DNA of 64,000 nt from the human T2T-CHM13v2.0 reference genome, Homo sapiens: NCBI RefSeq assembly GCF_009914755.1, contig NC_060939.1; one strand, 5' to 3'. The notes under the pieces were generated by a model. That model worked only from the letters and a program-made list of their open reading frames with translations, ran no database searches and had not been told where the DNA came from. Position 1 is the stretch's first letter, and the number at the start of each line of letters is the position of its first letter. Both the position numbers and the translations under genes were made by a program. This document shows positions 50,559 through 58,100 of this stretch, piece after piece.

Positions 50559-50666
50559 GTGAGTGAGGTTCACAGCATCCCCTAAAGAAGCTGAACCGGG
50601 GCAGCTATGGTCTCCCAGAAGTGCAAAGGAAGAGCCAAATGTCATCTCTCACCTTACTGACCCCAG

Positions 50667-50790
50667 GTGGTGGCAGCCACCCTCTTCTGGTACCATATGA
50701 CACCTTGACTGCCAAGGAAAAGTTCAAGGACCGGGAGAAGGCACAGGACCTGTTTAAGTTCCTCCAAGTGAATGGCATCATAGTTTCCAG
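50667..50790 (+). CDS. RYR3: RYR3 exon P ([40 protein letters not shown])
   Basis: ccccag acceptor after a 108-nt intron; CAG|gtaagt donor; 124 nt. Confidence 0.95.
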
Positions 50791-55684: not shown

Positions 55685-55842
55685 GTAAGTATCATCATGA
55701 AATAACCCAAAAGAATTCAATATTCTTTTATCAAGAAATAATCCTTTCAGACTGTAACTTTTTATGATTCATTTAGGTGCATGATTTTAGGGGGAAAACA
55801 GTGGCTGAAATTTTTTTCCCCCAACTTAAAAAAAATCAATCC

Positions 55843-56145
55843 GGCCGGGCGCTGTGGCTCACACCTGTAATCCCAGCACTTTGGGAGGCCGAGGCGGGCG
55901 GATCATGAGGTCAAGAGATGGAGACCATCCTGGCCAACATGGTGAAATCCCATCTCTGCTAAAAATACAAAAAAAATTAGCTGAGTGTGGTGGTGCACGC
56001 CTGTAGTCCCAGCTACTTGGGAGGCTGAGGCAGGAGAATCACTTGAACCTGGGAGGCAGAGGTTGCAGTGAGATCGTGCCATTGCACTCCAGCCTGGGGA
56101 CAGAGTAAGATTCTATCTCAAAACAAACAAACAAACAAACAAAAA
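55843..56145 (+). mobile_element. AluSc-like
   Basis: Full Alu with (CAAA)n tail. Confidence 0.9.
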
Positions 56146-56252
56146 CTCCTTAGTTTTTATAGTGGACTTGATTGAACCTTTTGTCATTTTTTCGCACAAC
56201 TTATCCTATTTTAACTTTCCTGTTGTCTTGCTTTATGACTGTGGACATATGA

Positions 56253-56578
<326 letters not shown>

Positions 56579-56809
56579 TGAAGCTGCTTTCTGATTGTTA
56601 AAGTAGAAAAAAGGGTAGTGAAACAGCTTAAAGAATTGACACAAGAAATAGCTAACCAGGACAGTTGTAAAGTACTTTGTAAGATATATTTTGTGAAATC
56701 AGATAGCCTTTTTAAATAGCCTTTAGAAAAGCTGCTCTGTTTCTAAAATGTTGTGACTGATTTTTACTTCGTAACTCTGGCCAACTTTGTGTTACCTGTG
56801 TCTTCGTAG

Positions 56810-56877
56810 AAGCCATTGTCAGCAGTGGGAAAACTGAAAAGTCTCCCCGTGACCAGGAGATCAAATTCTTTGCCAAA
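56810..56877 (+). CDS. RYR3: RYR3 exon R (AIVSSGKTEKSPRDQEIKFFAK)
   Basis: tcgtag|AAG acceptor; AAA|gtaagt donor; 68 nt. Confidence 0.94.
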
Positions 56878-56934: not shown

Positions 56935-57566
56935 AAACAGGTTAAGTGGATCCAGTGAAGATATCTAAAACTCCAATGGCTTCAGTGAGGTACATGTATA
57001 TTTCTCTGTCGTGTAACAGTCCCAAGGGAGGCTGGCAGTCCAAGGAGGGATGCAGTCTGCCTAGCCCCACACCATCACCTGGGAACCCAGGTTCTTCCTC
57101 TCTTGCTACTCCACCATCTCCGGAGGTGTGGCCTGTGTGCGTGGTTCAGACAGGCTCACCTGCACTGCATCTGTGGGAAAGGGAAAAGGAGAAGGGAAGG
57201 CAAGCTGTTGCTTTTTAAAAGTTCTATCCCAATGGCTAGAACTTGTCATCTTTCACCTTACTGACCCCAGGCAGTATGTCTGGGGTCAATAAGGTGAGAG
57301 ATGACAGGTTTACCCTTATGGTACATATGGTACCCTCTTCTGGTACGATATGATACCTTGAATGCCAAGGAAAAGTTCAGGGACCGGGAGAAGGCACAGG
57401 ACCTGTTTAAGTTCCATTTGAGCTTCATCCAGCTGCAAGGGAGACTGGGTGATACGTTTTCTGCCTGGGTGGCTCTCTATCCAGCTAAAACACAGTGGGA
57501 TCCTGTTGCCAAAAGGAAGAAGGGGAGAATGAATTTGGGCTCAAGTTAGCAGTCTCTTCCATACAG
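56935..57566. mobile_element. MLT1J/K-type LTR interrupted by the exon-P copy
   Basis: ...cccaatggctagaacttgtca | insert | cat...cagctgcaagggagactggg...gaaggggagaatgaat...agcagtctcttccataca follows the MLT1J/K pattern cattggccagaacttagtcacatggcc...agctgcaagggaggctggg. Confidence 0.7.
57240..57415 (+). pseudogene. Intronic rearranged partial copy of RYR3 exon P (acceptor + inverted acceptor + 84-nt exon body)
   Basis: 57244-57270 matches 50640-50666 (26/27); 57280-57306 matches its reverse complement (26/27); 57332-57415 matches 50679-50762 (80/84). Confidence 0.95.
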
Positions 57567-57978: not shown

Positions 57979-58100
57979 GTTCTCCTCCCGCTGGTTGACC
58001 AGTACTTCACCAGTCATTGCCTCTACTTCTTGTCATCCCCTCTGAAGCCCCTTAGCAGCAGCGGATATGCCTCCCATAAGGAGAAAGAAATGGTGGCCGG
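57979..58100 (+). CDS. RYR3: RYR3 exon S ([40 protein letters not shown])
   Basis: ttcccag acceptor; CGG|gtgagt donor; 122 nt. Confidence 0.95.

What the first reader, a model, noticed from the sequence alone, without database searches (positions are those of the whole stretch)
57240..57415. Templated, scrambled copy of exon P inserted 6.6 kb downstream into an MLT1 LTR
Seen in order: acceptor copy (joined to the LTR through tgtca microhomology); an inverted copy that also includes the LTR-flank bases aac(t/c)t; filler built from exon pieces (acccttatggtac, and catatggta = reverse complement of taccatatg); then 84 nt of exon at 95% identity. It includes intron sequence, so it was copied from DNA or unspliced RNA rather than mRNA. 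Known: microhomology, snap-back synthesis and serial template switching typify polymerase-theta end joining or MMBIR. Inference: a primate-era repair event that duplicated a functional splice acceptor within the same gene.
Basis: partly seen in the sequence, partly recalled or inferred. Interest (0 to 1): 0.8.

Follow-up and report, generated by a model that had tools for sequence, protein, structure and literature searches.

The report
Scrambled exon copy inside intronic LTR
An old DNA-repair scar in a RYR3 intron: about 170 bases copied in pieces, partly backwards, from an exon boundary 6.6 kb upstream and patched into an ancient retroviral LTR, most likely now inert.

Summary
Window 57244-57415 carries a direct copy of the splice acceptor of the RYR3 exon at 50667-50790 (27/28). 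It also carries an inverted copy of the same acceptor (26/27), 21 nt of filler that resembles the exon, and 84 nt of the exon at 80/84. In the whole assembly only the source and this copy match.

The flanks belong to a dispersed repeat: a 24-mer gave 193 genome hits against 0 for the reversed control. In other copies of that repeat the two flanks lie next to each other. So one LTR was split at GTCA|CAT, with no target-site duplication and no poly(A). A GTCA/TGCTA-type overlap of 4-5 nt (GTCA or TGTCA) lies at the left joint.

Best reading: one germline break repaired by microhomology-primed, template-switching synthesis that included a snap-back. The two acceptor copies form a 33-bp hairpin (-58 kcal/mol as RNA).

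Not tested: the enzyme, DNA versus nascent-RNA template, one step versus several, the date (about 4-5% divergence, roughly tens of Myr), and the name MLT1. This is a new example of a known kind of scar, of modest interest.

The parts
50640..50666 (+). Source: the last 27 intron bases (pyrimidine tract and AG) of the acceptor of the RYR3 exon at 50667-50790
   Evidence: exon limits from the gene table supplied with the finding
50667..50790 (+). Source exon (RyR repeat domain; reads [40 protein letters not shown] from 50669). Bases 50679-50762 were copied; 50668-50678 and 50763-50790 were not
56991..57243 (+). Left part of the interrupted LTR-like dispersed repeat. The 5' limit is approximate. 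The name MaLR/MLT1 is recalled only
   Evidence: 4 of 29 copies (L014, L019, L026, L027) score 46-52, above the shuffle maximum of 37.5, over 56991-57248. for the last 31 nt
57244..57248 (+). Junction overlap TGTCA. GTCA is certainly shared by LTR and source; the T is possibly shared
   Evidence: 14 of 29 family copies have GTCA at this place, preceded by A in 8, T in 3 and G in 3. Source sequence
57244..57271 (+). Direct copy of the acceptor plus the first exon base (27/28)
57272..57276 (+). Hairpin tip with no template found. CA at 57272-73 pairs with TG at 57277-78; the loop is GTA
57277..57310 (+). Inverted arm: reverse complement of 57240-57273 (30/34). It includes the inverted acceptor (26/27 to the source) and 5 nt of LTR flank (4/5)
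   Evidence: (I9, I12)
57311..57331 (+). Filler: a degenerate re-copy of the start of the exon fragment. Direct parse 14/16, inverted parse 11/11 when the ACC at 57332-57334 is included
57332..57415 (+). Direct copy of exon bases 50679-50762 (80/84). In the exon's frame it reads [27 protein letters not shown]
57416..57565 (+). Right part of the same LTR-like repeat. It holds the 24-mer 57426-57449 used to find the family. The C at 57415 may already be LTR
   Evidence: 193 hits against 0 control; right-flank alignments end at 57552-57567 in L006, L011, L019, L021 and L032

Best explanation
A germline chromosome break, or a collapsed replication fork, inside an old solo LTR in a RYR3 intron was repaired by error-prone synthesis that switched templates several times.

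Inferred path:
1. The LTR's 3' end (...GTCA) paired with the same 4-5 bases at the acceptor of an exon 6.6 kb upstream on the same chromosome.
2. Synthesis copied about 23 further bases, came off, and added a few bases.
3. The strand folded back on itself and copied its own new strand backwards, running 5 nt into the LTR.
4. It returned to the exon, made a faulty copy of about 20 nt, and restarted at an ACC shared by both positions.
5. It copied 84 nt and was joined to the other LTR end with 0-1 nt of overlap.

The net gain is about 166-172 nt, and the LTR lost nothing (within about 3 nt).

Shown: the pieces, their orientation and identities, the contiguity of the LTR, and the absence of retroposition marks.

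Inferred: a single event, a DNA template, the order of the steps, and the age (tens of Myr).

Today it is most likely a neutral relic. The copied acceptor and a donor-like site created by its inverted copy are locked together in a 33-bp hairpin.
For: - Piecewise homology to one source only. Searches show this within the window, and searches show that the whole assembly holds only the source and the copy.
- The flanks are one element. The 24-mer 57426-57449 with up to 3 mismatches gave 193 genome hits against 0 for the reversed control.
- The flanks abut in other copies. In 15 of 29 fetched copies the bases that align to the end of the left flank lie 8 nt before that motif, and in 20 of 29 they lie 7-9 nt before it. 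All 8 copies scoring 18 or more fall at 7-9 nt (6 of them at exactly 8); 18 is above the 95th percentile (16) of a shuffle control taken over 8 copies, though 22 was that control's maximum. The window has 10 nt there.
- There is no target-site duplication and no poly(A).
- Overlaps sit at the switch points: GTCA/TGTCA, ACC and CA/TG.
- The inverted arm extends into the flank 4/5, against 1/5 for the source.
- The filler is less like its neighbour (18/21; 85%) than the 84-nt tract is like the source (95%). A later clean duplication would give the opposite.
- The two arms share no derived change relative to the source.
- Kent et al. [quoted passage not shown]
Against: - The template is 6.6 kb away and the longest tract is 84 nt. 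From my recall of that literature, this is more than usual for Pol-theta scars.
- No larger copy-number change accompanies it, unlike most MMBIR cases (also recall).
- The right joint has only 0-1 nt of overlap.
- The window has 2-3 more bases than most family copies between the insert and the motif. This is unexplained: it could be an indel or junctional addition.
- A single event cannot be told apart from a quick succession of events with so few sites.
- The 4/5 flank match has a chance probability of about 0.016 on its own.
- No outgroup sequence was seen.
Confidence: 0.55

Rival explanations
1. The same kind of repair patch, but copied from nascent unspliced RYR3 pre-mRNA rather than from DNA. 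This would be a class-2 'templated sequence insertion' made by a reverse-transcribing repair polymerase. Synthesis would start from the right-hand break end and finish by annealing through TGTCA.
For: - The insert holds an intron-exon boundary, is in sense orientation, and comes from upstream in the same transcription unit (gene table).
- It has no target-site duplication or poly(A), and it has junctional microhomology and untemplated bases. These are the features of class-2 TSIPs (PMC5110952, passages read).
- That review reports enrichment of transcribed donors and suppression by RT inhibitors.
- Pol theta can reverse transcribe RNA (PMC8195485, title and start of abstract only).
- Ending on the 4-5-nt overlap is what synthesis-dependent MMEJ would predict.
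Against: - Nothing in the sequence requires RNA.
- Sense orientation is a 50% chance outcome.
- Priming at the right end would rest on 0-1 nt of overlap.
- The TSIPs described come from distant loci, not from 6.6 kb away in cis.
- Proximity in cis is just as well explained by DNA template switching.
Confidence: 0.2
2. Several separate mutations. First a plain insertion of a contiguous 123-nt patch (50640-50762). Later a short-range template-switch mutation replaced exon bases 50668-50678 with an inverted copy of the neighbouring sequence. A slippage duplication then produced the filler.
For: [quoted passage not shown]
- The inverted arm was copied from the local copy plus flank, not from the source.
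- TRF sees a 22-nt tandem pattern.
Against: - The arms share no derived change and differ at 4/34, about as much as each differs from the source. The inverted arm is therefore not clearly younger.
- The filler is more diverged than the 84-nt tract, the opposite of what a later duplication would give.
- This needs three rare events within 90 nt.
Confidence: 0.15
3. The structure has acquired a function. It could be a 23-nt frameshifting pseudo-exon (57271-57293) flanked by the copied acceptor and a donor-like AAG|GTGAGA, or a hairpin RNA acting as a small-RNA precursor or editing substrate.
For: - The acceptor copy keeps 26/27 intron bases of a working acceptor.
- The inverted pyrimidine tract reads as a donor-like site.
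- The hairpin folds at -58 kcal/mol, z -10.1.
- Template switching has been proposed as a source of new miRNA hairpins (bioRxiv 10.1101/2023.04.19.537475, title and start of abstract only).
Against: - No RefSeq transcript uses it (gene table).
- Both splice sites lie inside the stem, so they are probably masked.
- The loop is only 3 nt.
- The Rfam hits are generic, 20-27 bits against gathering scores of 79-190.
- The copy has accumulated substitutions at about the neutral level.
Confidence: 0.05
4. An assembly artefact, or a private recent event in the sequenced cell line.
For: Raw reads and other assemblies could not be examined.
Against: A chimeric artefact or a recent event would be almost identical to the source. 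Here 6 of 139 aligned bases differ (5 if the position of open polarity is set aside). The two arms carry different changes, and transitions outnumber transversions.
Confidence: 0.02

Closest known systems
Class 2 templated sequence insertions / TSIPs (Onozawa and Aplan; review PMC5110952)
   Same: The donor is left intact. There is no target-site duplication and no poly(A). Microhomology and untemplated bases sit at the joints. The insert is 10^2 nt in size, and intronic or unspliced sequence can serve as donor.
   Different: Here the donor lies 6.6 kb away in the same gene rather than at a distant locus. The insert is internally rearranged (an inverted segment and a re-copied segment). It is apparently old and fixed rather than polymorphic, though that was not tested.
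Polymerase-theta-mediated end joining with templated insertions / synthesis-dependent MMEJ (PMC4912351, PMC5728401, PMC2943611: listings and abstract starts only)
   Same: Microhomology at the joints, snap-back copying of the strand's own end, repeated rounds of annealing, synthesis and release, and low fidelity in the filler.
   Different: From my recall, such inserts are usually 3-30 nt and templated within about 100 nt of the break. Here the insert is 172 nt and its main template is 6.6 kb away. Dependence on the enzyme cannot be read from sequence.
MMBIR / FoSTeS replicative template switching (Hastings et al. 2009, PMC2621351: listing and abstract start only)
   Same: Serial switches to nearby templates in cis, in both orientations, with 0-5 nt of microhomology.
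   Different: There is no accompanying larger duplication or deletion, and the tracts are very short (20-84 nt).
Short-range template-switch mutations, four-point model (Loytynoja and Goldman 2017, PMC5453318)
   Same: 57277-57310 is a reverse-complement copy of the adjacent 57240-57273, and it creates a hairpin, exactly the outcome that model describes.
   Different: That model explicitly leaves out long-range and multiple successive switches. It explains only the hairpin part, not the transfer over 6.6 kb.

Membership tests
Class 2 templated sequence insertion | The insert is templated from another genomic place that remains intact | tested here: met
   Source 50640-50762 is intact and part of an annotated exon. 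The only other match in the assembly is the copy
Class 2 templated sequence insertion | No target-site duplication, no poly(A) tract or signal-driven end | tested here: met
   The flanks read ...GAACTTGTCA and ATTTGAGCTT..., with no repeat between them and no A-run. The family copies show the two flanks abutting
Class 2 templated sequence insertion | NHEJ-type joints (microhomology, untemplated bases, small deletions) | tested here: met
   GTCA/TGTCA overlap on the left, 0-1 nt on the right, and 5 bases with no template found at 57272-57276
Class 2 templated sequence insertion | Donor at a distant locus; insertion polymorphic in people | tested here: not met
   The donor is 6.6 kb away in the same gene. 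Polymorphism is not testable here; the 4-5% divergence suggests an old event
Pol-theta templated insertion (TMEJ) | Insert templated from sequence next to the break, in direct or inverted orientation | tested here: inconclusive
   The inverted arm is templated from the immediate flank plus new strand. The other 130 nt or so come from 6.6 kb away
Pol-theta templated insertion (TMEJ) | Dependence on POLQ | not testable with these tools
   An evolutionary relic; no genetics is possible
MMBIR / FoSTeS | Two or more template switches with microhomology, templates nearby in cis | tested here: met
   At least 4 switches, with overlaps of 4-5, 2, 3 and 0-1 nt
MMBIR / FoSTeS | Origin at a collapsed replication fork | not testable with these tools
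   Sequence alone does not separate a fork collapse from a two-ended break
L1-mediated retrocopy (class 1 TSIP / processed pseudogene) | Target-site duplication, poly(A), TTTT/A target, spliced template | tested here: not met
   None is present, and the insert contains intron sequence
MaLR MLT1 LTR (host element) | Dispersed, old, roughly 400-nt element whose copies are colinear across the insertion point | tested here: met
   193 hits against 0 control. Identity to the better-matching copies is about 67-77% over 130-140 nt. The flanks abut in other copies
MaLR MLT1 LTR (host element) | Match to the curated MLT1 consensus or model (Dfam/Repbase) | not testable with these tools
No repeat library was on hand. 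A full-text search for a 31-nt stretch of copy L019 found 0 papers

The most novel reading that the evidence does not exclude
The patch was reverse-transcribed from nascent RYR3 pre-mRNA still tethered near a break in its own gene. It survived because the same event made an inverted copy that locks the duplicated, otherwise competent acceptor and a new donor-like site into a 33-bp hairpin. On this reading it is a self-masking splice-site duplication, and a natural example of transcript-templated repair moving exon sequence within a gene.
Probability: 0.12. Interest if true: 0.6.

Novelty: new member of a known kind. Interest (0 to 1): 0.3.

Why it matters
This is a clean natural specimen of a multi-step templated repair scar. 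Every piece can be traced, and the host LTR serves as a built-in empty-site reference.

Such events move exon and splice-site sequence within genes without any retroelement machinery. That is one possible route to pseudo-exons, exon duplication or new RNA hairpins.

The copy also preserves a snapshot of the exon at the time of the event. At one codon it reads R, as another RyR3 entry in the PDB does, where the human exon reads K.

On its own it is a curiosity. A census of such cis inserts could test whether nascent RNA or DNA is the usual template.

Tried and rejected
- Whole-assembly DNA searches with the left and right flanks found only the flanks themselves. nhmmer of both flanks against the window also found only self. 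These searches are too insensitive for an old repeat. A 24-mer pattern with mismatches worked instead.
- MAFFT of the window with 29 copies put the whole insert opposite gaps. It misplaced the copies' ...AGAACTTAGTCACAT under the end of the exon fragment, which happens to resemble it. I therefore did not use it for the junction.
- A one-pass alignment with cheap long gaps was too permissive and was dropped. The anchored semi-global alignment replaced it.
- The notes of earlier sessions were closed.
- Rfam gave only sub-threshold generic hairpin hits.
- A full-text search for 'RYR3' plus 'pseudoexon' found 1 paper. Its (AAG)n pseudo-exon is at GRCh38 chr15:33,772,172-33,772,481. By my own coordinate offset estimate that lies beyond the window's end, so it is unrelated.
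- An ancient tandem exon duplication was rejected, because similarity stops sharply at the LTR on both sides.
- An L1-mediated retrocopy was rejected (no target-site duplication or poly(A), and intron sequence is present).
- I ran no further search on polarising the K/R codon.

Full report
**What is there**

The stretch 57244-57415 in the RYR3 intron between exons 56810-56877 and 57979-58100 is built from pieces of one source. That source is the acceptor and first three quarters of the exon at 50667-50790, two exons upstream. The pieces are as follows.

- blastn and the repeat finder agree that 57244-57271 is a direct copy of 50640-50667 (27/28).
- 57280-57306 is an inverted copy of 50640-50666 (26/27).
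- 57332-57415 is a direct copy of 50679-50762 (80/84, E 4e-34).
- Exon bases 50668-50678 are absent from the copy. In their place stand 60 nt: a 5-nt tip, the inverted arm and a 21-nt filler.

Of the 20 annotated exons in the window, this is the only one with a second copy (3 of 304 non-self HSPs). In the whole assembly both the insert and the source find only each other.

**The inverted arm**

The local inverted repeat (57240-57273 against 57277-57310; 34 nt, 88%, 3-nt loop) is longer than the homology to the source. It runs 5 nt into the left flank, matching the flank 4/5 and the source's own upstream bases 1/5. So the inverted arm was copied from the newly joined local strand, not from the source. 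On its own this is weak evidence (chance about 0.016).

With the source as reference, each arm carries its own changes and the arms share none. The arms are therefore about as old as the insertion itself.

**The filler**

The stretch 57311-57331 resembles the start of the exon fragment, and 15 of 2000 shuffles reach its score. It can be read in two ways:

- directly, as an error-rich re-copy (14/16 with one gap; TRF period 22, 1.9 copies, 85%);
- in part as an inverted copy (11/11).

The two readings cannot be separated because the source motif is made of two palindromic hexamers. In either reading an ACC is shared at the restart point.

The filler is less like its neighbour (18/21) than the 84-nt tract is like the source (95%). 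That is the opposite of what a later clean duplication would give. It points to sloppy synthesis during the original event.

**The host element**

Direct searches with the flanks found only the flanks themselves. A 24-mer from the right flank (57426-57449) with up to 3 mismatches has 193 matches in the assembly, against 0 for the reversed control. The flank is therefore part of a dispersed repeat.

I compared 29 other copies (L004-L032) with the window:

- The better ones align at about 67-77% over 130-140 nt on either side.
- Four left-flank alignments score above the shuffle maximum.
- In 15 of 29 copies the bases that align to the end of the left flank (...GTCA) lie 8 nt before the motif, and in 20 of 29 they lie 7-9 nt before it.
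- All 8 copies with scores of 18 or more fall at 7-9 nt. That cut-off is above the shuffle control's 95th percentile of 16, although its maximum was 22.
- The window has 10 nt there.

So the two flanks are neighbouring parts of one element, split between GTCA and CAT. The LTR shows no loss or duplication beyond 2-3 unexplained extra bases.

The element spans roughly 56991-57565, about 400 nt without the insert. No repeat library was available, and a text search for a 31-nt stretch of one copy found nothing.

**Joints**

- Left joint: GTCA is present at this place in 14 of 29 family copies (preceded by T in 3 of them) and in the source. The overlap is therefore 4-5 nt.
- Right joint: the last C of the insert may equally be the LTR's C (10 of the 14 copies continue GTCA-C). 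The overlap is 0-1 nt.
- There is no target-site duplication, no poly(A) and no A-rich target.
- The insert contains intron sequence, so L1-mediated retrocopying of mRNA is excluded.

**Mechanism**

The anatomy fits repair of a break or collapsed fork by microhomology-primed synthesis with several switches:

- template in trans (the upstream exon boundary);
- a few untemplated bases;
- snap-back on the strand's own new end;
- return to the exon, a failed attempt, and a restart;
- an 84-nt tract, then capture by the other end.

The three modes reported for Pol theta are non-templated extension, templated in cis and templated in trans (PMC4912351, start of abstract). All three appear to be represented here.

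The 6.6-kb distance and the tract length fit replicative template switching (MMBIR/FoSTeS; PMC2621351, start of abstract) or class-2 templated sequence insertions (PMC5110952, passages) better. The hairpin part alone matches the short-range four-point model, whose authors explicitly leave out long-range and serial switches (PMC5453318, passages).

The sequence cannot tell which enzyme acted. It also cannot tell whether the template was DNA or nascent pre-mRNA; the latter is allowed by the sense orientation, the upstream donor in the same transcription unit, and the intron-exon content.

**Age**

Against the source, 6 of 139 bases differ, or 7 of 144 when the flank bases of the inverted arm are included. 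That is about 4-5%.

In the exon's frame the copy reads P>R, T>N and K>R, plus one synonymous change:

- P and T are kept in RyR1, RyR2 and RyR3 structures, so those two changes belong to the copy.
- The K position is R in another RyR3 entry (9c1e), so that difference may instead be a later change in the human exon.

Using lineage rates that I recall (about 1e-9 per site per year), this gives some tens of Myr with a wide Poisson range. That is far younger than the LTR, which is about 25-30% from its relatives. 'Primate-era' is therefore plausible but untested, because no primate genome was available.

The divergence and the independent changes in the two arms argue against an assembly artefact. 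Raw reads could not be checked.

**Present function**

None is indicated. No RefSeq transcript uses the region (gene table).

The copied acceptor keeps 26/27 intron bases. The inverted pyrimidine tract happens to read as a donor-like AAG|GTGAGA. Together these outline a 23-nt frameshifting pseudo-exon (57271-57293).

Both sites lie in the stem of a hairpin of -58 kcal/mol (z -10.1, 0 of 200 shuffles as stable), so they are probably masked. Rfam gives only generic sub-threshold miRNA-like hits (20-27 bits against gathering scores of 79-190).

A published RYR3 (AAG)n pseudo-exon lies elsewhere in the gene.

**Verdict**

This is a real, well-resolved complex templated insertion into an old LTR. 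It is a new example of a known kind of repair scar and is probably inert. Interest is modest. It would rise if comparative or RNA data showed an RNA template or a masking role for the hairpin.

Noticed in passing
window 57271-57293: The acceptor copy (AG at 57269-57270) is followed after 23 nt by AAG|GTGAGA, which is the reverse complement of the acceptor's pyrimidine tract. This outlines a 23-nt frameshifting pseudo-exon. Both of its splice sites lie inside the hairpin stem.
   Followed up: partly
window 57379-57381 (codon AGG) against 50726-50728 (AAG): The copy reads R where the human exon reads K. Another RyR3 chain in the PDB (9c1e) also has R there. The copy may preserve an older state of the exon.
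   Followed up: partly
window 57394-57411 against 57233-57248: The end of the exon fragment (…CAGGACCTGTTTAAGT…) loosely resembles the LTR sequence at the break (…TAGAACTTGTCA). The likeness was enough for MAFFT to misalign the family copies under it. It could be chance, or a homeology that helped the final return to the LTR.
   Followed up: no
window 57320-57357: A second small hairpin appears in the DNA fold. It is formed by the filler and the start of the exon fragment, and it arises from the palindromic GGTACC and CATATG hexamers of the exon.
   Followed up: partly
window 55830-56580: An inverted pair of Alu-like repeats lies in the intron upstream (arms 55987-56072 and 56345-56430, 86 nt, 90% complementary). 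This is ordinary, but the pair could form double-stranded RNA.
   Followed up: no
outside the window (about 8.7 kb beyond its end, by my own offset estimate): A published RYR3 pseudo-exon is controlled by an (AAG)n repeat (PMC10078293). It is unrelated to this finding.
   Followed up: yes
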